DNA of 39,530 nt, taken from positions 1 through 39,530 of the IMG/VR virus record IMGVR_UViG_3300037634_001012. One strand, given 5' to 3'. The notes below the pieces were generated by a model. The model ran no database searches. It was not told the origin of the DNA and saw only the letters and a program-made list of their open reading frames with translations. The stretch is from a virus (taxonomy: Duplodnaviria; Caudoviricetes). Shown here in pieces: positions 9,356 to 39,393 of the stretch (position 1 is its first letter; each line of letters begins with the position of its first letter). A program made the position numbers and the translations under genes.

Positions 9356-12300
9356 ATGCCAGAGATTAAAAATAATTTTCTTCAAGGCAAAATGAACAAG
9401 GACTTTGATGAGAGATTAATACCTAATGGACAATATAGAAACGCTGAAAATGTGGAAGTATCAACTGCAGAGGACTCTAGTGTTGGTACTGTAAAAAATA
9501 TATTAGGTAATAAAGAGATAGGAAATTTTGTTGCTAATGGTAAATGTGTTGGAAGTATTGCTAATGAAAAAACAAATAAAATATATTGGTTTGTTTCAAC
9601 TTATGAGAAAGATGTTATTATAGAATATGACGTTGAACATGATGTAGTAGTACCCGTACTTGTAGATTTAAACGCTGGCGAACATAATGCTGTTTTAAAA
9701 TTCTATGGAAATATAATAACTGGTATAAATATAATTGACGATCTATTATTTTGGACGGATAATAATAGTGATCCAAAAAGTATAAATATTAAAGAGTGTA
9801 TAAGAGGCACAGTTGATTTTGATACCCACACGCAATTACTATTTGAACACGGTAGTTTTGATGGGATGACAGTAAAAATCGTGATGGCTGGTTACCCAAA
9901 CAGCACATTTGGCGCAAGCTATTGGCCACCTACAACTCCTGTTGATGAGATGGTAAAAAAAGGACATTACTTTTATTATCAACGAAGACCAATGACAAAA
10001 CTTTTAGGTTTAGATTTTAACGAAGCAACAGATGATGATGGATATATGCGAAATGGATGGTACCATACTAATGGTGGAACCGGTAATCCTTATGGCAATG
10101 AAAGTAATCATCCAGGCAATCATAACATACATTACATTAGGCATTATAGAAATGGTGAATTTTTAGGTTTACAACAAATTAGACTTTTTGACCAATATAA
10201 TGGCACTCATGGTAGATTAGATAGTGCTACTAATGGGCCAATATCTGGTACTTGGGCAGGGACTTCCCCAACAGATTTTCAAAAGGGAGACGTTATTTTT
10301 GGCAATAATATTAGATTAGATATAGAAGAACGTCATATTACAGTTATAAAACCAAAACCATTAAATACTTTTTCAGTAAAAATAAACCACACTCAAAACT
10401 TAGAAGGTACAAGTAATATTCCTAATTTATTTGAGACTAAGTTCCCAAGATTTTCTTATAGATATAAATATAGAGATGGAGAATTTTCTCCTTTTGCTCC
10501 TTTCACAAATCCTGTATTTAATCCTAGATACACAAAAGATATTAATAACTCTAGCGATGTAAATGTATATCACAATAAAGATACAAGTTATGATATAAAA
10601 GAACCACACAATAAAGCTATGGTAAACTCTATACATTCAGTAGAGCTTACTGACTTTGTAACAGCTCAAACTCCAGAAAATGTTGTTGAGATAGATATAT
10701 TATATAAGCAAGAAGATTCTCCTGTTATATATTCTATAGGTACAATAAAACATCTAGACCCCGAATGGCATGCTTGGGGTAATAATGAGGGTACAAATAT
10801 AGGTTTTGGAAAACAAATTAGAACCACTGGTTTAGCAAGCAGCTTGAATTATAGTGCAACTCAAATAGAGCACACATATGCAGCAGAAGGTGGTTATAAT
10901 AAAGGAAAATATATTGTAACAACAGAAAATATTTATGCTGCTTTACCAGCTAATCAATTACTTAGACCTTGGGATAATGTTCCAAGAAAAGCTTTAGCAC
11001 AAGAAGTGACAGGTAATAGAATTGTATATGGTAATTATTTACAAAATTATGATTTAGGCGTAGTAAAACCTAAGGTTAAAGTTAATTATAGTGATAGAAG
11101 CAATCAAATAGGTAGTTTCGAAACTCAAGGATTACCATCTCTAAAATCTTTAAGAAACTATCAATTAGGAGTTGTCTATAGTGATAAATATGGTAGAGAA
11201 ACCCCTGTGTTTACTTCTGATGAAGGGGCGACAAATATTCCTTGGCAAGAAAGTGATGGAATAAAAAATGCTAGTAAAAGTCTTCAATTAAACACAAGCG
11301 TAGTATCAAATTTTCCAGCGTGGGTTGATTCATTAAAGTTTTTTGTAAAAGAAACATCTAATGAATATTATAACTTAACAATGGATAGGGCTTGGGTTAC
11401 AAAGAAAACTTATGAATTAGATGATTCAGAAGGTCATCTTTGGATATCGTTTCCATCATCTGATAGAAATAAAATATCAGAGGAAGATTATATAGTCTTA
11501 AAAAAGAAAATAGGTACTGGCGAAGAACAAATTAACTTTGAAAACAAGTTTAAGGTTATTGATATTAAAAACGAAGCTCCAGATGCTATTAAGTATGAGT
11601 TGGTTAATATAGGTTCCGAGGTAAACGGTTCTAATTTCTTAACAGACACCACAAGTGGATTAGGAATGAGTATTAGTAATGCAACTGGAACAAAGGGTAG
11701 AATAGATAGAGAAGGTGCTACTAATTTTCAGTTTGATTATAGTAATTGGAAATGGGGATCTGGAGGGGAAGTTGGTAATATACCTTTAGAAGAAGACGTA
11801 GGTTCGGATAATGAAACTACATATACCCTCGGTACTAAAGATTTATATGTATCTTGGAGAAGACTTAGCGGTGGAGTAGGGGTTTCCTCAAAAAAATATA
11901 AAATAACTGGCGGTAGAAAAGGTGGTACGCATTATTTTTTAAAACTATCTACCCCAATATCTAAAATTGACGCAGATATAGCCCATATAAATGGTGATTC
12001 GTCTGATATAACCCAAGCTCTCTTACATCCAAATTTACTTTTTCAAATAGAAAAAAGAATACTTAAAGATTCAGAAGATTTCTCTGGAAAGTTCTTTGTA
12101 AAAATATCAAAAAATCAAATTACAAATTTAATTGAAAGTGGTGAACCTGTTAGTATATTAGATAAATATCAAGTATCAGCAAAAGCACCTACTTGGTATT
12201 GGCAAGAAGACACTTGGACGAGTTTTAGCATCGTAATTAATCAAGATGGTTCACCAACTAGTAATTATGGTCTTACGAATTGGGATGGTTATGATCAAAA

Positions 12301-15300
12301 CCCAGATTATACAAATAATAGTATTCAAATAGCTGCTAACAACGCTCATGGTAATGATACTGCTGATGGCAAGACTTTAAGGGTTACAGATTGGTATCAC
12401 CCGTGGGATGGGATATTAACTAAACATAATAGTATCGGACAATTTTTCGTAGACGCTATGCATGTAGCCTCTGGACAAAGTGATGCTAGTAATTATGCTA
12501 AATATAATTACATACCTTGGGCTGGATGTACTAAAGGTGAAAGTGCAACTAAAGAAGATTCTGCTTGGAGTTATCCACCTTTAAAAACATGGTTAACTGA
12601 TTTTGAAGATAAGACAGAGTTATTGGAAAGTTTAGAAGATAACGATAACACAAATTGGTACAATGGAAATTTAATATCTACTTCTCTAAGTTCACAAATT
12701 ACTAGTGAAAATCCTGACTGGAATGATTTAAGGGTTGATGGTTGGATTGGTAGTTTACAAAATGTTAGTAGAGATCATCCAACAACTCAAAATATACCTA
12801 ACCAAATAAATGGTTTAGAAGGATTTGTAACTACTAATAGCAATCATACTATTGGGCCTAGAAGATGGTTTAGCGGAATAACAGGTAATTCAACTGAGCA
12901 CGGGGTTGGAGTTGATACTAAAACATATTCAGATGACGGTGAGGTGGGTAGGCATTTCATGCACTTATCGTTTTTTGCTCCAGGGAAAAATCTGCATGAT
13001 GGTGATTTTGCTGGTTTAGATTCGGATGATGCGTTATATGGTGATAAATCTTGGGCCGCTAATTTACAAGGAATATGGGGTGGAGGTCATTTTACCGGAG
13101 AGGAACCCGGTGATATGTTTGGTACAGGCGCTACAGGATTCCAACACTTATGCATGGAAAGTAACAATGATAGTAGTGGAAGATTTTTAGAAGCAACACC
13201 TGCCCCCGGCGTGGGATATGGTTATGATATACGTTATAAAGAGCTACATGAAAGACAGTGGGACCCAACATTTGGTGGTAATGGAGATCCTGATAATAAA
13301 ATACGTGACTTTATAAGAAATTTATATCCAGGTTCGCAATTTAAGTTTCACATAGATTCAGGTGAAGAAGTTTATACTATTAAAAAAGTAGTTGTAAAAA
13401 AATTATATAACCATACATCTTGGAGAAAACCCTATAATAGGTACATTGCAGGTAGTGGAATTCTCGGTGTCGATTATGGATATATACACGGTTCTAATAT
13501 AGCGACTGAAAACCCAGCATATCGTAGTGTTGAGCAATGTGGTTTAGAATGGTTGGATCAAGTAGATGATGCTGGAGATTACACGGGAACTACTAATCCT
13601 ACACAAAGAGTTAATTTTGAAAATCAAATTGAAAATTTTGGTAAAGCAAGTAATAGGAGAGTTTGTTATATAATTGAATTAGATAAAAATCCAGCTGATA
13701 CATCAACGCAGGAAGGAAGTGGATTTAACCCAATAGCGGATGATGATCATATGAGCGCGGATATTGTAGGTGGAGATTTTGCGAATATTGAATTTTTAGA
13801 ACCAGTACAATCAGTTTTACTTTCTGATTTAAGTAAATTCCCAGCTATATGGGAAATTGATCCTAAAAAGAAAGAAGTGGATTTAGATATATATTACGAA
13901 GCTAGTAATAGTATACCTATAAAAATAAACAGTAATACAAACGAATTATTTGCGCCTATAGGATGTAAAGTTGAAGTAATAGATTCTGCAATTACCGGTA
14001 CTGCTAGATTAGAATCTTGGGATGGTACAATAGCGACATTTGACCCTGGTTTTGCTGATTTTGACGGTTCGGATGAAATAGATTATACAGGATTATCATT
14101 TAAATTTACTAGGGAAGATGGTGGTTTTACTATAGCCGAAGCTGGTGAACAAGAGTTAACAGGAGTAACAGCACTTGGGTATAAAACAGATTTTGTATTT
14201 AGAGAAGATATTGGAGATACGATACGCGCTGGTTTATCTTGGTACAATTGTTTTTCTTTTGGCAATGGTTTAGAATCTAACAGAATTAGAGATGATTTTA
14301 ACGAAATGTTTATTACAAACGGTGTTAAAGCTTCAACAACAACACAAGAAACATATGAAGAAGAACGTAGGGCACAAGGTTTAATATATTCAGGTTTATA
14401 CAACTCTAATTCTGGAGTAAATGATTTAAATCAGTTTATCATGGCTGAGAAAATCACTAAAGATGTAAACCCTACTTATGGTAGTATTCAAAAGTTATTT
14501 CAAAGAAGAATAAGTTTAGTAGCTTTTTGCGAAGATAGAGTTTTAAGTATAACATCAAATAAAGATGCTATTTATAATGCTGATGGTAATCCACAATTGA
14601 TATCTACAGATAATGTTTTAGGTGATGTAAATCCTTTTGTTGGTGATTTTGGGATATCAAAAAATCCAGAATCATTTGCGTCTGAATCATATAGAGCTTA
14701 TTTTACAGATAAACAAAGAGGGGCAGTGTTAAGACTATCTAAAGATGGTTTAACACCTATATCAAAAGCTGGTATGCACGATTGGTTTAGGGATAATTTA
14801 TCTAATTATACATCGTTAATAGGTACGTATGATAGTTACAAAGAAGATTATAATTTAACTTTAGCAAATACTTTTGGTGAAAATATTCTTTTTGGTTCTT
14901 CTTTTGATGTCGGCACAGAATTAGTTCCTATCTCTAGTGGAGTTAGAAATTTAGTTACAAATCCAGGTGTTTATGATGGTGTTTCTTTTCAATATCCCTG
15001 GGAACAATATGACGTTCTTCCAGAAAAGTACAATGCAAGTGGTACTCTTATAAACCCTACTTTTGGTTGGGGTACAGTAAACCAAGATTTAACAAGCAAC
15101 GCGGATATAACAAATCACCCGGCAATACCAGAGGGAAGTTTACAACCTTATGTAGCGCCCGTATCATATATAGCGCCTGTAGCTGCTGTAGCTGCTATAG
15201 CAGCGTATTGGACTATTTTTGACGATCAAAATGTTTCTACAGGTATTACTTTTGCAACAGAATCAGCAGCACTCGCATTCATAGCAGCTCATCCAGGTTA

Positions 15301-18300
15301 TGGTGCATCACCATATCAAAACGCAACTTATAGTACTACCTTACCAACTAGTGGAACTAATGTTGCGGGTCATCTTTATAGTGCTAATTTTACATCTAGT
15401 GCATATACTAACTGGGGTACTAGTCAAACCCCACCACCACCTGCTCAATCAGGATTTCTATTATATAGTGACACTAGAAGATATATAGACACCGCAAATC
15501 ATAGTTCAAACTACGGTGTTAATGGTTGGATTAATGAGAGTAGCCCTTATGCCTCATGGTCATCTGGCGTATTGCATACCTGGGGTTCTGGGACGACTAT
15601 TGGTGCAAATGGTAGTGTTGAGAGAAGCATTACCAGCTATCCTACTTCTAGTTGGTCAATTGCAGTAACTAAAGGTGCGATATCAGGAGTAATTACACAT
15701 AATAGTGGTAGTAATGGCGGTATTCTTTTTGATAGAGTTGGGAGTTGGGGTACTAATATAGATAATTGGGTTGAATTTAGAAATATTGGAATTGCACAAA
15801 GCGGTGGTACTTTCAGTTATGCAACAGGAACGTTAAACGACGCGTATTCCACTGCTTCAGGTAATGCTTCAGAACATACTTCTATATACAACGGGGATGA
15901 GATACATGTTTGGGTTAAGATAAAGTGTTATATGGACGCAGAGGTTCCCGCAAACACAAATTCTTCGACATGGCGCAAATATGGGTACAATCAAATTGCA
16001 CCTAAAATAACACTTGTTGAAGGTGATACGGGTAATCCAATTAATTCTAACATACTTCAAAATGTAAGTGTATTAAATCCCCCTATCACTGCTACATCTT
16101 ACAACTGGATTGGTAGTGTTGGTCATACTAGCGGTACTCTTAATTTGAGTTCAATTGGGCTTGAAGATGTATACCCAACATCTGGAGGTAATTATACTGG
16201 TAATATGAATGGATTTTCATCTGTTAATGCTCAATTTGGAACAAATAGTTCGTATCAATTTCCATCTACTCATAATTCCGGGCAAGGCGGTTCTCTTCAA
16301 GATCTTTTTAATTCCTACGCGCCTGGTTTTTATGAACTCGTTTTACAAGTTAGTTTTAAATTTAGAGATCCAGCCCAACAAAATCAATGGGGTGCACTTC
16401 ATGCGGCTTCTTACAATCAATATATTGAGCCAACAAAACTTGTAAATGATCTTAGAGTACGTATAAATCAAACTCACGATGGGCCCGCTAATGCCCACTC
16501 GGTAATGCAGAGTTACCCTTGGATGTGTCAACAACTTTGGGAAATACAAAAAGTAAAAATAATAAAAGGTTACGGTGTGACAGCTCCACCTCAAGCCGCA
16601 GTAGTCGGAACTCCTCCAACATCCGTCCAAACCCCTGCTGTAGCTGCTATAGCTGGTGTGACTCAAGTAGATGGTATTGCAGAAGTTGACCCTGTGCCAC
16701 CACACGATATACCAGCGTGGACCGAGGTTAATCATAATAATTCAAGTTGGTTTGATGATTGGGAAGTTACTAATACAGGTGGTGGAAACGTGGCATATCT
16801 TCATGCTCACACTGGTAATAACACTACAGGTGCATACCCATTAAAAGGACTTGGATACAATTATTCTGCAGTTACACAAAGTGGACTAGGACAAGATCCA
16901 AATGATTTAATTGATGTTACCCAACAATTATCTCCAAACCAACCTATTTCTTATGTTGTTCCTCAAGATTGGGGTTACGGTACTACTATAAATACGAGTG
17001 GTGGAGGCCAAACGTTAACAAATACTAGTTTTGTTGACACTAGTGGTTCGGGACCTACAAACGGTACCCCGTTTTTTCATACCGATAATCATACTACTGG
17101 AATTGTTTACCCTGGAATTATTGATAAGATACCTACTACCAAGGATTTTGAAAATGATTTCATGAGTATAATTACTGACACAATGGGAACGTATATAGAA
17201 ATAAGTCAAGATATTAGTAGTTCACCATGGGAAATTGGTGAGTGGTACTTAGTTGATGTAGAGTACGATGCAACTTTTAACGTTGATACTGGTGCTGGTT
17301 ATAGTAATGCTAATGGTTCTTTCTTTTTATATGGCATGGGTAGTATTAGTGAATTTGGTACGCAAGGTTGGGGTAATCCAGTTTCGCATGATGGAGTTGG
17401 TATATATCGTGGCTCCTCTCCCTACCACATCCAGTTGGTACAAGTGGATAGAACGGAGTATGGTAATTCACAAAGAGTTTTAAGAGCAATATTTAAAGTC
17501 CCTGCCGCGAATGATAGTTGGGTAACTAATACGAGTAACACTGGAAGATTAGATTCGTTTAAACTACATGTTTATGCATGCACTAACGAAGTGAGGATTA
17601 CAAAAATAATTTCTAAAAAGTTAGATACAGTAACAACTACTGGTACAGCTACAGATTGGACAAGTACATATAATGGCAGTTCAATAGCTCAACTTCACTC
17701 TTTTGATAGCAAAGAAGTGTATTATGCAGGTAATAAATTATGTTTTGAAGTACGAGACGATCAAGTAGATAAAACATATAAATGGGTACAGGATTTATCT
17801 GCTGTAACAGGATCTTTAATAAGTACTCCTTTAGGGTGGACGCTAAGCTTTTCGGTTGATACTATTCCAGTTACTAATAACTTTGTTGGTGAACTCCGTG
17901 CTTGGGTTGCGCCAGGAAGTGCGAATGATACATTATATATTGAAGGTGTTGATACTGTAGGAAATTATGAAATTGATTTTGATATAGATGCTTCATCTGT
18001 TAGTGGTTGGGCGATAAATGGACCTTCAGGTCATGGTGCAACTATATCTGCTGGAGGTACACACACGGGTAGTGTTACTAATGAAATAGGTTTTGCATCT
18101 GATGTTGATACGGTACCATCACCTACTGGTGTCCCTGCTTTAGAAGCGGGTATTAATAATATAATACTTACAGATAATACTCAAGTGTTACAAGGAGGAT
18201 CTGCTGGCTCATGGAGTTTTAGTGGATTTAATACTTCTGTAGATAGCTATATGTATTGGGACCACACACCTGGTGATGAAAAATTGAGATTTGAAAATTG

Positions 18301-19309
18301 TCCCCCTACCGATCCATTAGTTACAACGTCACCTAGACAACTTATAAACGCAAACCAATGGATTGACAAACCTATAAAAAGATATGAGCAATATAGAATA
18401 ATATTTGATTATGAAATTACAGATGCAGATATAGTTATATATTACTTTAATAGTCGAGGGTATGGGTTTAGAATAACAAGTATTGGAGCAAATCAACCAA
18501 TAAACACTACTGGTACATCTACTATAACTGGTACTTATAATGAAATACACACTATTGGTGATGCAGTTTGGGACTCTGAACATCCCACAACTAGTGGTGA
18601 GTATGTATCGCAATTAAAAAATACTTTTGTTATAAGGAAAAGTCATGGTCCTAATCTACTTAATGGTCACTTAGATAATATATCTATGACTAGAGTCTAT
18701 GATTTAAGTTCTCAACCAGAAAAAACAGTAAGTTTTAGTGAGGACGTAAATGGTTGGACTAGTTTTAAAAGTTTTGTTCCAGAAAGTGGTACTAGTATAT
18801 CTAAAAAATATTTTACTATGATGAATGGTGGTTTATGGCAACATTATACACCTTTAAAATGGGATAATATTAATAGTCAATGGGTAGACTCTAGCATAGA
18901 TGAAGCCGAAAATTATAACAGGTTTTACGGTATCCCTAATAATTCTAGTATAACAGCAGTTTTAAACGGTGATCCTTCTACGGTAAAAACGTTTAACACA
19001 TTGAATTATGAAGGTAGCCAAGCGCAAGTAATAAAACCTTTATCTGCCGTTCCAACATCTACATCTGGAGGTATTACTGTAGATAATGCACAAGCTTGGG
19101 CTCAAGGAAGTAATATTGATGGTTGGAATTGTACAGAGATAAAAACAGATATAGATACTGGTAATATTGTTGAATTTATAAAAAAAGAAGGTAAGTGGTT
19201 TAATTATATAAAAGGTAAACCAACATCGCTATCTGATATTGGAGATACTAGTCGATTTAGTGTTCAAGGCATTGGAGAAGCGAGCGCTGTTACAGAAGTT
19301 ACTTACTAA
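9356..19309 (+). CDS. Giant tail nozzle / 'stabilization' (muzzle, tail tubular B-like) protein with large adhesin-like insertions
   Basis: 3317 aa. Recognisable core blocks: NFLQGKMNKDFDERLIPNGQYR, LFWTDN, FPRFSYRYKY, YQLGVVYSDKYGRETPV, LDIYYE, WYNCFSFGNGLESNRIRDDFN, FGISKNPESFA, DKQRGAVLRLS, GWTSFKSF, KTFNTLNYEG, KKEGKWF. Confidence 0.8.
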   Translation: MPEIKNNFLQGKMNKDFDERLIPNGQYRNAENVEVSTAEDSSVGTVKNILGNKEIGNFVANGKCVGSIANEKTNKIYWFVSTYEKDVIIEYDVEHDVVVPVLVDLNAGEHNAVLKFYGNIITGINIIDDLLFWTDNNSDPKSINIKECIRGTVDFDTHTQLLFEHGSFDGMTVKIVMAGYPNSTFGASYWPPTTPVDEMVKKGHYFYYQRRPMTKLLGLDFNEATDDDGYMRNGWYHTNGGTGNPYGNESNHPGNHNIHYIRHYRNGEFLGLQQIRLFDQYNGTHGRLDSATNGPISGTWAGTSPTDFQKGDVIFGNNIRLDIEERHITVIKPKPLNTFSVKINHTQNLEGTSNIPNLFETKFPRFSYRYKYRDGEFSPFAPFTNPVFNPRYTKDINNSSDVNVYHNKDTSYDIKEPHNKAMVNSIHSVELTDFVTAQTPENVVEIDILYKQEDSPVIYSIGTIKHLDPEWHAWGNNEGTNIGFGKQIRTTGLASSLNYSATQIEHTYAAEGGYNKGKYIVTTENIYAALPANQLLRPWDNVPRKALAQEVTGNRIVYGNYLQNYDLGVVKPKVKVNYSDRSNQIGSFETQGLPSLKSLRNYQLGVVYSDKYGRETPVFTSDEGATNIPWQESDGIKNASKSLQLNTSVVSNFPAWVDSLKFFVKETSNEYYNLTMDRAWVTKKTYELDDSEGHLWISFPSSDRNKISEEDYIVLKKKIGTGEEQINFENKFKVIDIKNEAPDAIKYELVNIGSEVNGSNFLTDTTSGLGMSISNATGTKGRIDREGATNFQFDYSNWKWGSGGEVGNIPLEEDVGSDNETTYTLGTKDLYVSWRRLSGGVGVSSKKYKITGGRKGGTHYFLKLSTPISKIDADIAHINGDSSDITQALLHPNLLFQIEKRILKDSEDFSGKFFVKISKNQITNLIESGEPVSILDKYQVSAKAPTWYWQEDTWTSFSIVINQDGSPTSNYGLTNWDGYDQNPDYTNNSIQIAANNAHGNDTADGKTLRVTDWYHPWDGILTKHNSIGQFFVDAMHVASGQSDASNYAKYNYIPWAGCTKGESATKEDSAWSYPPLKTWLTDFEDKTELLESLEDNDNTNWYNGNLISTSLSSQITSENPDWNDLRVDGWIGSLQNVSRDHPTTQNIPNQINGLEGFVTTNSNHTIGPRRWFSGITGNSTEHGVGVDTKTYSDDGEVGRHFMHLSFFAPGKNLHDGDFAGLDSDDALYGDKSWAANLQGIWGGGHFTGEEPGDMFGTGATGFQHLCMESNNDSSGRFLEATPAPGVGYGYDIRYKELHERQWDPTFGGNGDPDNKIRDFIRNLYPGSQFKFHIDSGEEVYTIKKVVVKKLYNHTSWRKPYNRYIAGSGILGVDYGYIHGSNIATENPAYRSVEQCGLEWLDQVDDAGDYTGTTNPTQRVNFENQIENFGKASNRRVCYIIELDKNPADTSTQEGSGFNPIADDDHMSADIVGGDFANIEFLEPVQSVLLSDLSKFPAIWEIDPKKKEVDLDIYYEASNSIPIKINSNTNELFAPIGCKVEVIDSAITGTARLESWDGTIATFDPGFADFDGSDEIDYTGLSFKFTREDGGFTIAEAGEQELTGVTALGYKTDFVFREDIGDTIRAGLSWYNCFSFGNGLESNRIRDDFNEMFITNGVKASTTTQETYEEERRAQGLIYSGLYNSNSGVNDLNQFIMAEKITKDVNPTYGSIQKLFQRRISLVAFCEDRVLSITSNKDAIYNADGNPQLISTDNVLGDVNPFVGDFGISKNPESFASESYRAYFTDKQRGAVLRLSKDGLTPISKAGMHDWFRDNLSNYTSLIGTYDSYKEDYNLTLANTFGENILFGSSFDVGTELVPISSGVRNLVTNPGVYDGVSFQYPWEQYDVLPEKYNASGTLINPTFGWGTVNQDLTSNADITNHPAIPEGSLQPYVAPVSYIAPVAAVAAIAAYWTIFDDQNVSTGITFATESAALAFIAAHPGYGASPYQNATYSTTLPTSGTNVAGHLYSANFTSSAYTNWGTSQTPPPPAQSGFLLYSDTRRYIDTANHSSNYGVNGWINESSPYASWSSGVLHTWGSGTTIGANGSVERSITSYPTSSWSIAVTKGAISGVITHNSGSNGGILFDRVGSWGTNIDNWVEFRNIGIAQSGGTFSYATGTLNDAYSTASGNASEHTSIYNGDEIHVWVKIKCYMDAEVPANTNSSTWRKYGYNQIAPKITLVEGDTGNPINSNILQNVSVLNPPITATSYNWIGSVGHTSGTLNLSSIGLEDVYPTSGGNYTGNMNGFSSVNAQFGTNSSYQFPSTHNSGQGGSLQDLFNSYAPGFYELVLQVSFKFRDPAQQNQWGALHAASYNQYIEPTKLVNDLRVRINQTHDGPANAHSVMQSYPWMCQQLWEIQKVKIIKGYGVTAPPQAAVVGTPPTSVQTPAVAAIAGVTQVDGIAEVDPVPPHDIPAWTEVNHNNSSWFDDWEVTNTGGGNVAYLHAHTGNNTTGAYPLKGLGYNYSAVTQSGLGQDPNDLIDVTQQLSPNQPISYVVPQDWGYGTTINTSGGGQTLTNTSFVDTSGSGPTNGTPFFHTDNHTTGIVYPGIIDKIPTTKDFENDFMSIITDTMGTYIEISQDISSSPWEIGEWYLVDVEYDATFNVDTGAGYSNANGSFFLYGMGSISEFGTQGWGNPVSHDGVGIYRGSSPYHIQLVQVDRTEYGNSQRVLRAIFKVPAANDSWVTNTSNTGRLDSFKLHVYACTNEVRITKIISKKLDTVTTTGTATDWTSTYNGSSIAQLHSFDSKEVYYAGNKLCFEVRDDQVDKTYKWVQDLSAVTGSLISTPLGWTLSFSVDTIPVTNNFVGELRAWVAPGSANDTLYIEGVDTVGNYEIDFDIDASSVSGWAINGPSGHGATISAGGTHTGSVTNEIGFASDVDTVPSPTGVPALEAGINNIILTDNTQVLQGGSAGSWSFSGFNTSVDSYMYWDHTPGDEKLRFENCPPTDPLVTTSPRQLINANQWIDKPIKRYEQYRIIFDYEITDADIVIYYFNSRGYGFRITSIGANQPINTTGTSTITGTYNEIHTIGDAVWDSEHPTTSGEYVSQLKNTFVIRKSHGPNLLNGHLDNISMTRVYDLSSQPEKTVSFSEDVNGWTSFKSFVPESGTSISKKYFTMMNGGLWQHYTPLKWDNINSQWVDSSIDEAENYNRFYGIPNNSSITAVLNGDPSTVKTFNTLNYEGSQAQVIKPLSAVPTSTSGGITVDNAQAWAQGSNIDGWNCTEIKTDIDTGNIVEFIKKEGKWFNYIKGKPTSLSDIGDTSRFSVQGIGEASAVTEVTY
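15183..16653 (+). repeat. Exact 19-bp direct repeat pair CTGCTGTAGCTGCTATAGC (15183-15201 and 16635-16653)
   Basis: Read directly from the sequence; spacing 1452 bp (in frame); both copies encode AVAAIA. Confidence 0.85.
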
Positions 19310-20914: not shown

Positions 20915-21361
20915 ATGAAAATAAAAGGAAAAGAAAATCTTGATATTGATATTCGCCCTATTAGATTAGATGACTATCTAGAACTAGAAAAATGGTGGAA
21001 ATTATATGAAAAACATGGTGAGGTTATGCCAAAAAAAAGCTTATTACCAGACGATGGGGGATACGTCGTAGTAAAAGAAGGTAGATTAGTTGCTTCTTGT
21101 TTTTTGTATTTAACAAATTCTGCTATAGGATATATTGATTACTTAATAGCAGATCCAACATATAGAGAAAAAGACAGACTTGAGTTATTACTTGATTTAG
21201 CCGCTCGCGTAACCGCTGTTGCTATTGATAATGGTTGTGAAAGTATTTGGGCTATGACAAAAAATAAAGGGGTAATAGAATATGCCGCGGGAGATGGACG
21301 TGCCTTTGGGTTAGTACCTGGTGATTATAAAATGGTACGCACTTATGGGAGTGGATATTAA
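20915..21361 (+). CDS. GNAT-fold acetyltransferase-like protein
   Basis: IRPIRLDDY start, G-rich beta strands (GYVVVKEGRLVASCFL), motif-A-like IDYLIADPTYREKD, then helix and GCESIWAMT. Position between nozzle and ejection genes is like T7 gp13. Confidence 0.7.
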   Translation: MKIKGKENLDIDIRPIRLDDYLELEKWWKLYEKHGEVMPKKSLLPDDGGYVVVKEGRLVASCFLYLTNSAIGYIDYLIADPTYREKDRLELLLDLAARVTAVAIDNGCESIWAMTKNKGVIEYAAGDGRAFGLVPGDYKMVRTYGSGY

Positions 21362-21409: not shown

Positions 21410-22744
21410 ATGAGTAGTGGTGGAGGCGGTGGGCATTCGAGAGCAATGACCGAATTAGCAAAAGAACAGTTTGAGTATTATAAAGAACAACAGATAAAAG
21501 CTCAGGAAAGAGTAGACATTCAAAGAGAGGACTATGAAGCTTTTGAATTTACAAATCCTTTTGCTGATGCTCAAAATCCGTTCGCGAATATACAAACTGA
21601 TTTTTCAAATATATATGGTGGAGCTAAAAACGTGTTCGCTGGTGCACAAAATAAATTTGCTGGATTAGAGAACAGATACGAAGGCATGGAAAATCGTTTT
21701 GAAGATATGACTGTTGATATGCGTGCCGCAGATTTTCAAACTCAACAGATGCAACAACAACAAGCAAATATAATGCAAGGATTAAGGGGTGCTGCTGGCA
21801 CTAGCGGTGTTGCTGGTCTAGCTCAAGCCATGGCAAGCCAAGGCGCTATACAATCTCAACAAATAGCTGCGGGAATTAGTCAGCAAGAAAGACAAAACCA
21901 AATGTTATCAGCACAAGAAGGGGCTAGAATAGATCAATTACAGAGAGGTGCTGGTATGCAATTAGATCAATTGTCAGCGCAAGGAGCTATGAAAACCCAA
22001 CAAATGCAAATGGCTGGAGCTTCTGAACAACAACAAATGATATTAGGTGGAGCGGCCCAAGCTCAAGCATTAGGTGTGTCGCAACAAAATGTACAGGCCC
22101 AAGGGCAATGGATGGCAGATATGGCAATTATGCAAGGTGAAGCTGGTGTTCAAGGTGCTGAATGGGGAAGAGAATCAACCTTACTTGGTATGGAATACGG
22201 TTTGTTAGGAGGAGCAAATGAAGGTTTATCAGCGGCTATGGGAAACCAAATGAATGCTATGGGGATGAACGCACAAATGGCAAATTCACGGAATCAAGCT
22301 AACAATCAAATGCTAGGTACGTTCACTATGAAGTTAATATTTATGTGTGTACCAAAAGGTGTAAGTATTGATTGTGTTAATAATACTAAACTTATAGAAG
22401 ATATTAAACCTGGAGATACAGTTATAGGTTATAACGGTAATCCAGTAAAAGTATTACAAAAACATGAATATTTAGAGAATCCTACAGCAGAAAGATTTTA
22501 TAAAGTTAAATTTAAAGGTGAAAATGATAGGGTTCATGAAGTAAATGTTTGTGACATGCACAGAATTAAAGGTGAAAGATCTAAGAGTATAACAGAAAAT
22601 GTTATAAGTAAAGAAATTTATAACGGCGTTGAGTTTAGTTATGATTTATTAACAGAGGACGAAGGATATAGAATAGATGGTATTCCTGTTAATAGTATGA
22701 TTGGAGAATTAGCTGAACACGCTGTAAAATTAAAAAATAAATAA
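21410..22744 (+). CDS. Putative ejection/pilot protein with C-terminal Hint (intein-like) domain
   Basis: Gln/Ala/Gly/Met-rich helical body with 7-aa N-x-F/Y repeats. C-terminus M|CVPKG...IEDIKPGDTVIG...CDMHRI...YDLLTEDEGYRIDGIPVN|S matches Hint blocks A, B, F, G. Confidence 0.75.
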   Translation: MSSGGGGGHSRAMTELAKEQFEYYKEQQIKAQERVDIQREDYEAFEFTNPFADAQNPFANIQTDFSNIYGGAKNVFAGAQNKFAGLENRYEGMENRFEDMTVDMRAADFQTQQMQQQQANIMQGLRGAAGTSGVAGLAQAMASQGAIQSQQIAAGISQQERQNQMLSAQEGARIDQLQRGAGMQLDQLSAQGAMKTQQMQMAGASEQQQMILGGAAQAQALGVSQQNVQAQGQWMADMAIMQGEAGVQGAEWGRESTLLGMEYGLLGGANEGLSAAMGNQMNAMGMNAQMANSRNQANNQMLGTFTMKLIFMCVPKGVSIDCVNNTKLIEDIKPGDTVIGYNGNPVKVLQKHEYLENPTAERFYKVKFKGENDRVHEVNVCDMHRIKGERSKSITENVISKEIYNGVEFSYDLLTEDEGYRIDGIPVNSMIGELAEHAVKLKNK

Positions 22745-24789: not shown

Positions 24790-27700
24790 ATGCCAGATAA
24801 GAATAGTATTTTTCCAGATTTTTTTAAAGATATAAATCTTGACGAAGAACAAGAGGAGCAGGATAGTCTATTTCCAGATTGGTTTGCAGATATAGATCTT
24901 GACGAAGAAGATGAAGAATCAGACGATGGTTCTTTGGGTTTACCATCGTTTGAATTTAATCCGGCGACACAAGATAAAACAACTTTCAATAGACCTGTGT
25001 TTTCTTTAGAAAGAGATGGTGATAAGAATAATGTTTACCCGTTCCCTTCTGGAGATTTTTACGATATTATAAGTGGAGATGATGATAAGGAAGAGACACC
25101 AAAATTAGTGAAAGACATCCAAAAAAAGGAAGGTACTTTTGTTCCAGAACCCAAAGTAACAACGGATTTTCGTTTACTAACAGAAGAAGAGGAGGAGAAA
25201 CTTTACCCACAAACGGTACAAGAAGCGGAATTTGGTCAGCATAAAGTTACGCTTAAGGGCGTTGAAGAAGGGGAGGATATTGTACAGGAACTACCTACGA
25301 GTCAGTTGCGTTACGACAGAACAAAAATATTCAAAATAAGTGAACATACAGAGGGTTATGAAAACGATAGAGAAAAACTAGAAGCATACTTAAATCTTGA
25401 ATACTTTACAAAATCTCAACATTTAAAAAATATTATAGGTACAGATAATTTAACAGCTTACCAAATTAAAGATCCTGATTTGAAACGTCTTAAAGAAGAT
25501 TTTAAATCTAATTTAGGGGAACTTGGTATTAGTAGAACTGCCTATCCAAATTTAGAAGACTATCATCTAGACGAGATATTAACCGATGTTTTTACTGCTC
25601 AAGTTGCAAAAGAAAAATTAGATATAGCGGTAGGAGATCAGTATACAACAATAAACGATATTTTAATTAAGAAAGAAAAAGATACAAGTGATGCTGATGC
25701 TATTAAAGAAGGTGTTGATAGACTAGATAATGGAAAAATAAACGGTCGTGCGAATAAAAACGAAATTGAATACGCTAGAATTACAAAACTTTTAAGAGGA
25801 GAGCTAGATGATGATACTAGAAAGAAATATGAAGACAGATTAAATGTAAATATACCAGGTTCTTTAGGAGATATTTTATTTATGAAAGATGAGGTAAAAA
25901 TGGTGGGTTTTAATCAGTATGAAAAAACTGGTAAAAGAATCCCTAAAGATAAGAAGTTTGAATTGTTTCACGATCCAGTTTCTGGTATAAATTACAAAGC
26001 TGGAGAACGAAAAGTGGCTGAAACGAAAGGTGGAGCTGTTATTAATATAACTGATGCTTATCAAATTTACTTAAACAAGTTTGAAAATACTTCTTTAGAT
26101 GATTTAACTAAATTTAACCATCAACTTTTATTGGAAGAAGCTGGATATAAAATAGAAGGTAAAGAATTGGGGAATTACTATGTTGGTGATCAAGTTATAC
26201 GTGGCATGCTAATAGACAAGGGTTACGAAATGGATAAGGATGGTATATTTAAAGATGTACCGCTCGGTGTGTTAACAGAATTATCAAACATTCCTGGCAC
26301 AAGCGATTTCTGGGGACGCGATGTTTTTATGGCTAAAGGTGAGATAATTCCTCAAGACTATAAAAACAAACCATACGAAACTGAAGAAGAGTTTTTAGAT
26401 TTCTTAAGGGTTAGAAGACAACAAGGTCATGATATAGCTGCCAAGAATGAAGCTATGTTCCAGACGTATTATTTAAATAGAGATATTAGCTCTATAAATA
26501 AAAGTAGAAAAGGACAATTTTTTGGAAATTTTGCTGGAACATTATTTGGGAAACGCACAACACAAGAGCAATTTGGATTTACCAATCAAGATGTAGTCGA
26601 TGTTTTTGCTAGTGAGATTCTAGATCCGTCTGGAGTAGACACTACACCAGGGCAACAAGAAGTGTTTGAAAGAACTGTTGCTGATAGATTTACCGAAGGA
26701 GGTGGGGCACTACTTGGTATGGTAACTTTATTGGGTGGTACTGTAAATCCAGCAATGAAAGCACTTGGTGTTAATAAAATGATAGCTGGTATAACAGCGC
26801 CTAGATATTTAGCAACTAGACTCACTTGGAATGGAACAAAAGCTGGTGGGGTAATAAAACAATCTAAAGTAATTAGAGATGCTGCTTCTGTCGGGAAGTC
26901 TGTCTCTCAATATGCGGATGATATAGGATTAAAAATATTACCTGTAACTAGTACACAGAAAGGAGTAGGGTTAGTTGCTGGAGCTCTTTTAGAAGAGTGG
27001 AAAATGGGACCGGTTCTTGGGGCAATGACCGACGATAGGGTAAGGTTTGAACCAGGTGTTGGAGCGGGTTTCTATTTAATGCCTAAATTAATTCCATTTG
27101 GATTTGGAAGATTTGCTCAAGGTAAACCTTTAGGTATGACTTTCAAAAATAACCAAATGAATACCTTTATGCAATCGACATTTGTTAATGGTCCTTCTTT
27201 TGCTTTAGCTGTTGAAGGTGGTGATTTTTTGAATGCACTTGGTGACGACATGATGGGTAGAGAAGAGATTTATGGTTGGGCTAAACATCATTGGGGCGAT
27301 CGTAAAGAAAATATGATTCGTGTTGGTTTAAATATAGTTAACGGTAAGGTTTTAGGTATGATGCATTTCAATCCTCTTGATTATAAAACTACTAGTATGA
27401 TTGGAGATTTTAAAAGAGAATCTATGGGATTATACGCTAAAGATTATAAGAAAATAAAAGAACTAGCAAAAAAAGAAAAGTTAACGCCTGAAGAGTTCAT
27501 GTTGTGGAATCCAAAACATAAGGATGTACAAAACGCACAAAAACATCATACTGACTGGATGTTATCTGATCAACGTTTGGACTTGATTAACGAAACAGCA
27601 GATTGGACAGGTGATGGTGCAAATACAAAAAAAGTTTATGAAGATCATTACAAACCACTTGTGGAGTTATTTGAAAATAAGGGTAAAAAAATACAAATAG

Positions 27701-30700
27701 AAGTTGGTAACAAACCTATTTATCAATCTATGGGCTTTAAAAATGGTAGAGAGGTTTTTGATGAGGTAGATGCGTTATATACAAGAATGAGTGATAGTAA
27801 AGATGGTATTGCTAGAATACAGATCAATACAAGAAAATCAAAAGGAAAGGCAACAGCGAGTCACGAAGGCTTACATGCTTATTTGGATTTACTGTTTGAT
27901 GGTAATATAAAAGTAGAGAAAGCTTTTATGGAATCACTTAAAACTGCTTTAAAAAGTATGAAAACAGAAGGTGGTAGCAATGTCTACCAAGATATATTAA
28001 ACACTAAAGATATAAAAGACATTAATAAGTTAGAGGAATTAATGGCTTATGGAGCTGAATATTTAGGTAAGGTAGAAAACTATAATGCTTTAGTTAGTAA
28101 TCAAGGTTTTACTAAAATGAAAAAGTTTTGGAATAACTTTGCTGGAAGCGCTTTCCCAGGATTAAAAGCAGATTTAACTTTAAAACAAGATATAATAGAT
28201 CTTTTAGGTACTTATGGTAGAACTGGTGATATAAGAAAATTAGATAAATTTGCTGAGAATATAGAATACGATCCTACTGGTGAAGCTAGAAAAGGTCAGG
28301 TTGCTACAAGAGGAGAGAGTATAAATAAAGAAATAGCAGAGATTAAAAAAGAGAAAAAGGGAGTTCTTAAAAATCTTAACGATATAAATATAACCAAACC
28401 CAAAGGATATAAAACAGTTGCTGAAGAAAAAAGAGAAGAATGGAAAAAATTAGATGCTCGTCAGAAAGAATTAGAAAATCAAGTTGAAATAGAAGATGTA
28501 AAAGAAGAGGTAAAAGAAACAGGTTGGGATCAACAGATTGATAAAAATTATACTATTGGTAAGTATAAAGATAAAACTGTAAATGGTAAAAAAATAACAG
28601 CTAAAGAAGATTTTCAAAATAAGCAAAGATTTGCTGGGGATAAGGCGGTGGCTGAAGATATAAGAAACAGTACTGGTTTAGAAAATAAAATTAGACAGAA
28701 TGCAACTTTAATGAGAGTTCCAAAAGAAGCTCAAAAGCAATTCGTTCAAGATGTTAAAGAAAGAATAATAGAGAAATTTCTTAAAGAATATGATCCGGGT
28801 AAAATAAACAAAGAATTTGGTAGAGAGTTAACTCCTTTTGGGTGGATGACACATCGCACTAAACATAAACCAAGCATGATATATAGAGCCGCTGGCGATG
28901 TTGCTGCTAAATATAAGAAAGAAATTCCAACAATAAAAGCTGACGCATATGAAGGTGGTATTGAAGCTTTTGAAGGTTACTCAGAGCAAACTGGTCACAT
29001 GAACACTGCTAAAACATTTGATTCCAAAGTTGAAAGAGATGGTATAGAATTATCTGAACAACCAGGAATGAAAAAGAAAGTTGGCGATAAAACTTTGGGT
29101 GAGGTAATAGATCAAAAAAGTGGAGCTGATGCTAAGAACTTAGACTTTGGGGCTAAGGGTGCGAAAAAAATTGTTAGTTATAAAAACATACAACCTAATG
29201 CGGAAAAAACCATTGGTAAAGAAGTAACTGTTGATTATTATAAAGTTACGCCTGAGATGTATAAGAAAATGCAAAAGCGTGTTGATCAACAACTTAACAA
29301 TGATGATATAACAAATGTTTTAAAAGTTATAAAAGATAATATTGGTATAGAATTAGGTATGATACCAAGATGGAAACAATCAATAATTGACAAGCACACG
29401 GGTCAAGAAGTTGCTTTTATGATTGTTGGTGGTAAATTTCCATCCGAACCAAAAGCTACTGGTACTACAACTAAAATACTTAAATTAGGACAAGAAGGGG
29501 GATTAAAGAATGGAAAAATAAAGGGACTATTGTATAATGAAATACCACAAACGGGTACTAAAGGTTCTAAATACGAATATTCTAAAAGATATGAAGAATA
29601 TCTTAAAACACTAGATAAAGCTTTCAAAACAGAATTTGAGCAAGATGTTATTGAAGCGTTATCTAAAGGAGATAGGGCGGATAAAAGTGGAAAGCTCAAA
29701 GGTTGGATGATACAAAGGAAGAAGGCTATGTATGTTCAAGGTGTCGATAAAGCTTTACCTAATACACCTGAATTAACCGCTAGACATACTTTGGCAGAGA
29801 TGTCCAATCAAGTAAAGGCTGGTTTAAATCCAGGGTTAGCCGCAAAAGATGTAAACGCGGTTATAAAAATGCTACAAAAAGATAGAATAGATATTTACGA
29901 TATATATGAAGCAATGCCTAATTCTCCTAAAGCTAGAGCGCCTATAGAAAAGTTAATACTTGAAAGGGACGCTTTAAGCAAGGATACTGATGTTATTAAA
30001 GCTAACATGAAATATCAATCAGAACTTGAGGTTAAAACTGAAGCTGAATTAGATGCTGTTTATTTAGAATCTGTTAATAGATCAAGACAAATTGCTAAAG
30101 ATAATAATCTAGTTGAAAATCTTGCAGATCCAAACTGGATTGCCAACAATCCAAATAAAGTTATTGGCACTAAAATTGTAAAAGGTAAAAAAGTAGAAAT
30201 TACCGCGGAACAGTGGAGGAAGGATTTAGATTTTCAAGTTCTAGAAGAAATGGGTGTTGATCTTAAAGAATTAGAAGCTTTACAAACAAAAAAAGGACAA
30301 ACATATCATCACGCTTTAGAATCTATATTAGTTGAACTTGGTTTTAATAGTAAAAGTAGAAGACAAAAATTACCTAATGGAGATTTTGTTTATTTAAACA
30401 AAGGTAAAAAAGGTAGTGCTGATGCTATTTATAGTTTTTTAGGTAAAACAGTTTCAACTAAAAAAGGTAAGTCAGCAAAAAAATACGAAAAAGTATACCG
30501 CCCTGATTGGAGCACAGAAAAGAAAAACTTACAAAAGCTGGAAGATGAGATGGTTGCTAATAATGAACCTATAGAAGCTATAAAAGACGCTAAGATTGAA
30601 ATGTATAGAAAAAATGCTTCTTATAGTGGTAAGTCAAAAGATTATGAAGCTACAGAAAAAGCTAATCGCGATTTTTTTGAAGATTATTTTACAGCTATGG

Positions 30701-38937: not shown

Positions 38938-39393
38938 ATGATAAGTAAACACATTTCATATAAGGAAGGTGTGTATAGCACAACGGCAACGCGCCGAGGA
39001 ATAGACAACAATCCAAACGACGAACAATTAGCTAACATGGAATTAATAGCTGAAAAAGTATTTGAACCCCTTAGGGAATGGGTTGATGGACCTATAAAAG
39101 TAAATAGTTTTTTTAGATCTGTAGATCTTAATAAAGCAATTGGAGGAAGTAGTAAATCCCAACATTGTCATGGTCAAGCAATTGATATAGACGACACATT
39201 CGGAGTTGTTGCCAATAGTGATATGTATAACTATATCAAAAACAATTTAGACTTTGATCAAATGATTTGGGAGTTTGGAGATGATGACAATCCTAATTGG
39301 GTGCATGTTAGTTATGTTTCTGAGGAAGATAATAGAAGAAGGTGTTTAAGGGCTAAAAGAAAAGATGGTAAAACTACTTATAGTATTATATAA
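38938..39393 (+). CDS. Endolysin, peptidase M15 family (Zn D-Ala-D-Ala carboxypeptidase-like)
   Basis: SFFRS..LNKAIGGS..SQHCHGQAIDI...WVHVSY: the SxH-x6-D...H zinc ligand pattern of M15A/M15_3. Confidence 0.9.
   Translation: MISKHISYKEGVYSTTATRRGIDNNPNDEQLANMELIAEKVFEPLREWVDGPIKVNSFFRSVDLNKAIGGSSKSQHCHGQAIDIDDTFGVVANSDMYNYIKNNLDFDQMIWEFGDDDNPNWVHVSYVSEEDNRRRCLRAKRKDGKTTYSII

What the first reader, a model, noticed from the sequence alone, without database searches (positions are those of the whole stretch)
22346..22744. Ultra-compact Hint / mini-intein at the C-terminus of a putative ejection protein
Seen: Cys313 (M|CVPKG, codon 22346), IEDIKPGDTVIG (typical Hint beta strands), CDMHRI (block B TxxH-like His), YDLLT..EGYRIDGIPVN (blocks F/G) ending at Asn428 and followed by Ser429. 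That is ~116 aa with no homing endonuclease, Val instead of the penultimate His, and a 16-aa tail (SMIGELAEHAVKLKNK). Established: C1/Asn/Ser+1 is the canonical splicing set, and inteins mostly sit in replication enzymes and terminases. Inference: this is a domesticated BIL/Hedgehog-like autoprocessor rather than a selfish intein. It could splice on a basic tail, expose the hydrophobic end (TFTMKLIFM), or ligate the pilot protein to another molecule through the thioester. It is shorter than typical natural mini-inteins, so it may be useful for protein engineering.
Basis: partly seen in the sequence, partly recalled or inferred. Interest (0 to 1): 0.8.

Follow-up and report, generated by a model that had tools for sequence, protein, structure and literature searches.

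The report
Lysine-paired self-cutting cap on phage injector
A marine phage protein that likely helps inject DNA ends in a small intein-like domain that is predicted to cut itself off rather than splice, and a lysine kept five residues before the cut in nearly all relatives suggests it may seal the new end into a ring without any other enzyme.

Summary
The Hint domain is real: C313-S429 (117 aa) of a 444-aa crAss-like cargo protein (ORF 21410-22744); AlphaFold pLDDT 87.9, Z up to 15.5 to inteins and Hedgehog. Among 121 orthologues the end is this Hint (32), peptidase S74 (26), another Hint (1) or nothing (62), all at about the same point, so it is an optional, swappable cap; no empty-site allele was found (0 of 89). 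The same Lys-Hint module follows a short lipopeptide in Verrucomicrobia. Best reading (0.45): Hedgehog-type cleavage resolved by Lys308 into an isopeptide, probably a five-residue lactam; plain cleavage 0.27; shifted-register splicing 0.13. No chemistry is tested. This scan noted the family earlier on other DNA, from the Verrucomicrobia side (e1-8462193, e1-8462190); I found no paper on it in 10 searches.

The parts
21410..22744 (+). 444-aa precursor: putative first cargo/ejection protein plus Hint cap
   Evidence: ORF; lies after muzzle and GNAT genes and before 680-aa and 3797-aa ORFs; role inferred from position and make-up
21410..22345 (+). Predicted mature part, residues 1-312: Q/A/G/M-rich, all-helical model
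   Evidence: AF2 mean pLDDT 66.5, helices only; no PDB, PHROG or Foldseek match; 801 homologues of residues 36-180
22307..22345 (+). Hydrophobic end segment, residues 300-312, exposed by cleavage
   Evidence: among the highest hydropathy windows of the protein; 4% charged residues at -20..-6 across 274 homologues
22331..22333 (+). Lys308, five residues before Cys1; proposed amine nucleophile
   Evidence: K at -5 in 245 of 274, R in 0; 0 of 26 S74 forms; only Lys between residues 196 and 312
22346..22696 (+). Hint domain C313-S429, 117 aa
   Evidence: family length 110-128 aa
22346..22348 (+). Cys313 = Cys1 nucleophile
   Evidence: 274 of 274; aligns with residue 1 of inteins and 258 of Hedgehog 1at0
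22457..22477 (+). Family-specific QKHEYLE motif (350-356), His352; candidate base near the active site (inferred)
   Evidence: Q 238, H 235, Y 254, E 248 of 274; per-residue match to Hedgehog D46 not tested
22550..22561 (+). Block B CDMH, His384 = His B10
   Evidence: His 274 of 274; aligns with the block-B His of gp41-1
22643..22645 (+). Asp412, block F position 4
   Evidence: 274 of 274; block F alignment
22691..22693 (+). Asn428, in the penultimate-His (G6) slot
   Evidence: N 240, D 23, Q 4, A 4, E 2, K 1 of 274; register
22694..22696 (+). Ser429, in the terminal-Asn (G7) slot, likely Hedgehog's C143 slot
   Evidence: S 256, T 17, C 1 of 274; register
22697..22741 (+). 15-aa amphipathic tail helix, Met430 invariant
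   Evidence: M 274 of 274, tail 8-37 aa; helix in model
20915..21361 (+). Upstream GNAT acetyltransferase-like gene (context)
   Evidence: PF00583 E 3.5e-4, above cut-off
9356..19309 (+). crAss-type muzzle protein gene (context)
   Evidence: PF25729 crAss_MUZ_C E 1.4e-8; phrog_14478

Best explanation
The 444-aa protein is a likely ejection-protein precursor ending in a 117-residue Hedgehog-type Hint domain that is predicted to cut itself off at Met312|Cys313 without splicing, and Lys308 would close the reaction by attacking the activated carbonyl to give an isopeptide bond, most likely a five-residue lactam ring (K-L-I-F-M) at the new hydrophobic end. Steps: (1) N-to-S shift at Cys313 helped by His384 and Asp412 (residues shown conserved; chemistry inferred from intein/Hedgehog work); (2) possible relay of the acyl group to Ser429, as Hedgehog does to C143 (inferred); (3) attack by the epsilon-amine of Lys308, in cis (lactam) or from a neighbouring subunit (cross-link), releasing the 15-kDa Hint plus tail (inferred from conservation only). 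The ring would remove two charges (Lys amine, C-terminal carboxylate) from a hydrophobic end that likely enters the host envelope. The cap is optional: most orthologues end at the same point with no cap, or use peptidase S74.
For: Hint fold and register. Cys1, His B10, Asp F4, S/T/C429 and Met430 each 274 of 274. Lys at -5 in 245 of 274, 163 of 177 at <80% and 61 of 69 at <60% identity; Arg never; background Lys 1.7%. 26 of the 29 exceptions keep a Lys at -6 to -16, mostly behind small-residue linkers, in several separate branches of the Hint tree. S74-capped orthologues: 0 of 26 have Lys at -5 or anywhere in -16..-5. From a conserved anchor the pre-Cys part is 56-66 aa (20 rows), the pre-S74 part 55-68 (24 rows), cap-less ends median 62 (62 rows), so cleavage at Cys1 gives the orthologous mature end (14 of 120 rows had no anchor). 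The Lys is kept in unrelated hosts: other podovirus ejection genes (14 of 14 viral loci) and Verrucomicrobia lipoproteins. Precedents: Tetrahymena BIL2 forms a Lys isopeptide (PMC8616854, passages); Hedgehog C143 forms a branched intermediate (PMC12054796, abstract and passages).
Against: No biochemical test. The model around Lys308 is only moderately confident (residues 305-314 mean pLDDT 62) and no distance to the scissile bond could be measured. 62 of 121 orthologues have no cap at all and three cap-less ones end with the Lys at -5 from the stop codon (P0136, P0140, P0145), so any ring is dispensable in those lineages. Three Hints have no Lys at -5..-16 (P0073, P0228, P0255). Position 428 is N/D/Q/E, the residues able to cyclise, in 269 of 274, which fits splicing. 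A conserved Lys can also serve as a catalyst of the acyl shift (K58 of the TkoCDC21-1 intein, PMC5874633 passage). Ejection role itself rests on gene position and composition; no structural match.
Confidence: 0.45

Rival explanations
1. Plain self-removing cap: the thioester is hydrolysed (or thiolysed), leaving a linear end like that left by S74; Lys308 only positions the junction or acts as a catalytic base.
For: Interchangeable with S74 and with no cap, 26 label changes on the tree of 121 orthologues, least possible 3; same mature length; type B BILs catalyse cleavage uncoupled from splicing (PMC4031507 passage).
Against: Block-B His and F4 Asp are intact in 274 of 274, so no stand-in catalyst is needed; Arg never replaces Lys (0 of 274); the Lys can move from -5 to -16, easier for a tethered nucleophile than for a fixed salt bridge.
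Confidence: 0.27
2. Splicing in a register one residue shorter than in inteins: Ser429 takes the acyl group, Asn428 cyclises, and the S-M-I-x-E helix is joined to residue 312.
For: [quoted passage not shown]
Against: Register; no His in the G6 slot, and His in the F13 slot in 1 of 274; Ala or Lys at 428 in 5 members from more than one branch; 0 of 89 Hint-less or S74 orthologues carry the tail; does not explain Lys-5.
Confidence: 0.13
3. Hedgehog-like attachment of an outside molecule (lipid head-group amine, sterol-like or small molecule, or another virion protein), with the tail helix as adduct-recognition region and Lys308 as helper.
For: Hedgehog is among the best structural matches (Z 15.1); amphipathic helix after the Hint; both hosts are membrane-directed.
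Against: Tail shrinks to 8 residues in many lipoproteins, far shorter than a sterol recognition region; no conserved partner gene near 46 bacterial copies.
Confidence: 0.1
4. Non-catalytic folding or masking domain that stays attached.
For: No activity has been measured; the cap is absent from most orthologues.
Against: All catalytic residues invariant; purifying selection; a folded 13-kDa beta domain on a protein that is expected to thread through the tail is unlikely (inference from PMC10136315 passages).
Confidence: 0.05

Closest known systems
Hedgehog C-terminal autoprocessing domain (Hint + sterol recognition region; PDB 1at0)
   Same: Hint fold (Z 15.1, rmsd 1.8, 112 aligned), Cys1, block-B His, no terminal Asn, a nucleophilic residue in the last slot (Ser429 vs C143), C-terminal position in the precursor, helix after the Hint.
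   Different: 28 residues shorter than the 145-aa 1at0 chain; Ser/Thr instead of Cys; Asp at F4; tail 8-37 aa, not a sterol-binding region; conserved Lys at -5 in the substrate; phage and bacterial hosts.
Type B bacterial intein-like domains (Pfam Hint_2, PF13403)
   Same: No intein block G His-Asn; cleavage rather than splicing expected (PMC4031507 passage); 12 of 14 members match PF13403 weakly, some bacterial members pass the cut-off.
   Different: Matches cover only the N-terminal 40-75 profile positions; the window's own domain has no PF13403 hit; hosts, Lys-5, QKHEYLE and S-M-I-x-E motifs are family-specific.
Tetrahymena BIL2 of BUBL1 (PDB 6y75)
   Same: Hint fold (Z 14.4); reported to join the N-flank to a lysine epsilon-amine (PMC8616854 passages).
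   Different: BIL2 has a terminal Asn (N143 in the entry title) and its acceptor Lys is on another ubiquitin-like domain or protein; here the candidate Lys is five residues upstream in the same chain.
Class 1 mini-inteins (gp41-1, MchDnaB-1, Mtu RecA)
   Same: Fold, Cys1, His B10, Asp F4, no endonuclease.
   Different: No His G6, Asn G7 or +1 nucleophile in register; no empty-site alleles; sits at a variable protein end, not inside a conserved enzyme.
Peptidase S74 intramolecular chaperone (PF13884)
   Same: Occupies the same site in 26 of 121 orthologues; self-removing C-terminal cap (established knowledge, recalled).
   Different: Unrelated fold and Ser-Lys chemistry (recalled); no upstream Lys in those orthologues (0 of 26).

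Membership tests
Hint superfamily | Hint fold with Cys/Ser1 and block-B His | tested here: met
Class 1 intein | Cys/Ser at position 1; His B10; F4 Asp | tested here: met
   274 of 274 each
Class 1 intein | Terminal Asn (G7) followed by Cys/Ser/Thr +1 | tested here: not met
   Ser429 in G7, Met430 in +1; 27 of 50 VIA rows end at model residue 135 = S429
Class 1 intein | His G6 and/or His F13 assisting Asn cyclisation | tested here: not met
   G6 slot never His; F13 slot His in 1 of 274
Class 1 intein | Intein-free alleles with the two exteins contiguous | tested here: not met
   0 of 89 orthologues carry the tail without the Hint
Class 1 intein | Splicing activity | not testable with these tools
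   needs expression and MS
Hedgehog Hog domain | Hint with C143-type nucleophile in the last slot | tested here: inconclusive
   1at0 end points put S429 on residue 400 (C143); 6tyy end points would be one off; residue is Ser/Thr, Cys in 1 of 274
Hedgehog Hog domain | D46 general base | not tested
   no per-residue structural alignment available; His352 is only a candidate
Hedgehog Hog domain | Sterol/adduct recognition region after the Hint | tested here: not met
   tail 8-37 aa, one helix; PF01079 hits cover only profile 10-96 of 213
Type A BIL | C-terminal His-Asn | tested here: not met
Type B BIL (PF13403) | No similarity to intein block G His-Asn | tested here: met
   definition from PMC4031507 passage
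Type B BIL (PF13403) | Full-length match to the family profile above cut-off | tested here: inconclusive
   window domain: no hit; 3 bacterial members above cut-off over the N-terminal part only
Type C BIL of predatory bacteria (recalled, not read) | Conserved upstream segment and PPS-1 host domain | not tested
   primary paper not in the searches; no profile on hand
crAss-like cargo protein C1 / T7 gp14-type ejection protein | First cargo gene after tail genes; helical, membrane-entering end | tested here: inconclusive
   position and all-helical model fit; no sequence or fold match

The most novel reading that the evidence does not exclude
A portable, single-gene self-cyclase: a 110-128-residue Hint plus K-x-x-F-x junction that phages bolt onto the first ejection protein, and Verrucomicrobia onto 14-40-residue lipopeptides, to close the new C-terminus onto Lys-5 as a macrolactam (or to chain neighbouring subunits into a covalent ring) before it enters a membrane. 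It would be a new Hint reaction type, a new virion-protein modification and an enzyme-free route to lariat lipopeptides.
Probability: 0.4. Interest if true: 0.88.

Novelty: new variant of a known kind. Interest (0 to 1): 0.7.

Why it matters
Hint domains are known to splice (inteins), cleave (BILs), attach cholesterol (Hedgehog) or join ubiquitin-like domains to lysine (BIL2). A family whose substrate carries its own conserved lysine would add a self-contained ring-closing or cross-linking reaction, in a domain smaller than solved natural inteins, useful as a genetically encoded lactam tag. For phage biology it shows that the end of an ejection protein is a swap site for three unrelated self-removing caps, and makes a direct test possible: does capping or cyclising the membrane-entering end matter for DNA delivery? 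The bacterial copies predict an unreported class of short lipopeptides in Verrucomicrobia. One fusion protein and a mass spectrometer separate all readings.

Tried and rejected
Pfam and PHROGs on the full protein: no family; isolated domain only Hom_end_hint E 0.031, below cut-off. phmmer of the domain against PDB: nothing significant. NCBIfam on 59 members: only weak intein N-terminal hits. No match among 50,697 GenBank phage records, so no cultured model phage was found. N-terminal part: no PDB sequence match, no informative PHROG, no fold match. A stand-alone Hint gene near cap-less orthologues: none in 44 loci, only the 4 fused forms. Lys308 as target of the neighbouring GNAT: rejected as the reason for its conservation, since S74 and cap-less orthologues lack the Lys and bacterial copies have no conserved neighbour. 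Mapping His352 on Hedgehog D46: profile searches never displayed a Hedgehog alignment, left open. Origin of the bacterial copies: lipoprotein rows cluster (3 changes, 36 of 125 rows) but the tree has few columns and no root, so direction of transfer is not claimed. No RNA holder listed. The wide VIA search was not run; no complex prediction was sent because no binding claim is made. Literature: 10 searches listed no paper on a Hint domain at the end of ejection proteins or on Verrucomicrobia lipopeptide-Hint genes; the library lacks most subscription papers, and no supplements were read.

Full report
Context. The window is a whole 39,530-base linear virus record, about 72% complete, found in marine metagenomes. 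It holds a crAss-like structural block: terminase, portal and virion proteins, a 3317-aa muzzle protein with the crAss_MUZ_C domain, a GNAT gene, then ORFs of 444, 680 and 3797 aa. The finding is the end of the 444-aa ORF (21410-22744). Its first 312 residues model as long helices only (mean pLDDT 66.5) and match nothing solved. Calling it the first cargo/ejection protein is an inference from position and make-up; crAss001 cargo C1 is described as ejected and bearing a transmembrane helix like T7 gp14 (PMC10136315, passages).

Observation. An AlphaFold model of residues 295-444 built on 98 sequences has pLDDT 87.9. Foldseek gives 17 PDB matches at E<=0.001 and every listed row is a Hint-fold entry; VIA-align gives Z 15.5 (MchDnaB-1), 15.1 (Hedgehog 1at0), 14.4 (BIL2). 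The domain is under purifying selection against 6 phage loci (dN 0.20-0.29, dS 0.95-1.28), and other runs hold identical DNA over the junction and domain.

Register. Model residue 19 (C313) pairs with intein residue 1, and 27 of the 50 rows end at model residue 135 (S429), paired with the last intein residue, e.g. MchDnaB-1 145, which the entry title names as N145; BIL2 extrapolates to its N143. Two titles (9hth N159A, 6zgq N146A) do not extrapolate to the same slot, but ranges give end points only and these run past the domain. Sixteen His/Ser-Asn-ended Hint segments from proteins align without gaps over the last six columns with H on N428 and N on S429. So the canonical set (Asn G7, Cys/Ser/Thr +1, His G6, His F13; PMC4031507 passages) is absent: +1 is Met (274 of 274), G6 is never His, F13 is His once. 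In 1at0 (C1 = 258) the end points place S429 on 400 = C143; 6tyy would be one off. C143 carries a branched thioester in Hedgehog and is called equivalent to the +1 nucleophile (PMC12054796, abstract and passages). S/T/C at this slot in 274 of 274 suggests the same relay role.

Family. The C-terminal search gave 143 proteins of 207 candidates; a 14-sequence profile gave 601 of 1.84 billion representatives at E<=0.001, 89 at 1e-30. Of 323 aligned domains, 277 span the Hint and 274 have 12 or more residues before Cys1; these 274 were counted. Length 110-128 aa; tail 8-37 aa. Hosts: crAss-like cargo proteins, the first post-tail gene of unrelated podovirus-like contigs (L007-L014), and 47 loci in GTDB genomes, 44 titled Verrucomicrobia, one unnamed, two Proteobacteria. 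In 40 of 46 complete genomic copies a lipobox-like Cys precedes the Hint by 14, 15, 18, 22, 26, 33 or 40 residues (four more by eye, two are long phage-type proteins); these lengths fit a 3.6-3.7 period (0.80-0.83, others <=0.43; no formal null). The bacterial genes stand alone among housekeeping genes, no neighbour family shared by more than 8 of 46 loci.

The cap is swappable. Of the window protein and the best 120 of 801 hits to its N-terminal region, 62 end with no cap, 32 with this Hint, 26 with an S74-type motif (called by pattern; Pfam S74 hit of one example E 0.013, below cut-off) and 1 with a different Hint. On a tree of the cap-free parts the labels need 26 changes (least possible 3, shuffled mean 50.8); the Hint label needs 13, at least 9 forced by starred branches. 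From a conserved anchor, the cut at Cys1 gives 56-66 residues, S74 55-68, cap-less median 62 (14 rows without anchor left out). None of 89 such proteins carries the S-M-I-x-E tail without the Hint, as intein-free alleles would.

The lysine. Position -5 is Lys in 245 of 274 (163 of 177 below 80% identity, 61 of 69 below 60%), Arg in none, against 1.7% Lys further upstream; neighbours at -12 to -1 vary freely apart from Phe at -2 (146 of 274). Of 29 exceptions 26 have a Lys at -6 to -16; three have none. S74 forms: 0 of 26. The Lys therefore travels with the Hint, across unrelated hosts, and needs to be a primary amine. A Hint that joins its N-flank to a lysine side chain is reported for Tetrahymena BIL2 (PMC8616854, passages).

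Mechanism. Shown: fold, register, conservation, cap exchange, Lys-Hint coupling. Inferred: N-to-S shift at C313, optional transfer to S429, attack by K308, release of 313-444 (14,968 Da). I put isopeptide formation at 0.45 (cis lactam more likely than inter-subunit link, since spacing is fixed at five in most), plain cleavage at 0.27, shifted-register splicing at 0.13, an outside adduct at 0.10, inactivity at 0.05. Against the lead reading: half the orthologues do without any cap, three cap-less ones end five residues after the Lys, the model is weak around K308 (pLDDT 62), a Lys can be catalytic in an intein (PMC5874633, passage), and position 428 is N/D/Q/E in 269 of 274, which keeps splicing alive.

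Comparison and novelty. It works like a Hedgehog/type B BIL N-terminal autoprocessor; it is not a class 1 intein, type A BIL or Hog domain by the features tested. Yutin et al. mention only Hint-Hop inteins in terminase (PMC7886860, passages); the ejection-protein review has no occurrence of intein or Hint (PMC8954989, word count and passages). Also seen as passages: PMC2362128, PMC10386132. The primary BIL papers (Amitai 2003, Dassa 2004, Dori-Bachash 2009) are recalled, not read; no supplements were read, and tables there could list this family. Ten searches found no description of it. Two earlier notes of this scan reached the same lysine idea from a Verrucomicrobia gene; I saw them after my own counts, and they are not independent evidence. 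Verdict: real, new variant of the Hint kind, interest 0.7.

Noticed in passing
window 24790-36183: 3797-aa putative large cargo protein with an internal P-loop domain at residues about 2265-2410 (AAA_33 E 2.8e-10, Zeta_toxin E 1.2e-9) and no RNA-polymerase family hit.
   Followed up: no
window 20915-21361: GNAT gene directly before the ejection gene; tblastn finds relatives just upstream in 5 of 58 loci; many others have a 138-154-aa ORF there that was not tested.
   Followed up: partly
P0318, P0321, P0327, P0337, P0342, P0345, P0347: Proteins with tandem arrays of 2-7 Hint domains ending in His-Asn; the +1 residue is mostly Lys and the next Hint's Cys often follows within 1-5 residues.
   Followed up: no
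P0160: Orthologue with an unrelated Vint-like Hint at the same site, no Lys at -5, and a C-terminal six-residue end identical to that of S74 forms, suggesting one cap replaced another.
   Followed up: partly
P0136, P0140, P0145: Cap-less orthologues that stop exactly five residues after a Lys, as if the Hint had been lost by a stop at Cys1.
   Followed up: partly
P0110, P0073: P0110 lacks blocks F and G (83-aa remnant); P0073 lacks the Lys-bearing helix. Natural deletions or assembly errors.
   Followed up: no
window 22312-22394: Close relatives in three of four runs replace 81 bases over the junction by 87 other letters and rejoin inside the Hint: the junction is the most variable part.
   Followed up: no
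L059-L101, L105: Stand-alone Verrucomicrobia lipoprotein genes: signal peptide, Cys, 14-40-aa amphipathic peptide with Lys-5, same Hint; lengths step by helical turns.
   Followed up: yes
window 38938-39393: Peptidase M15 endolysin-like gene at the record's end.
   Followed up: no
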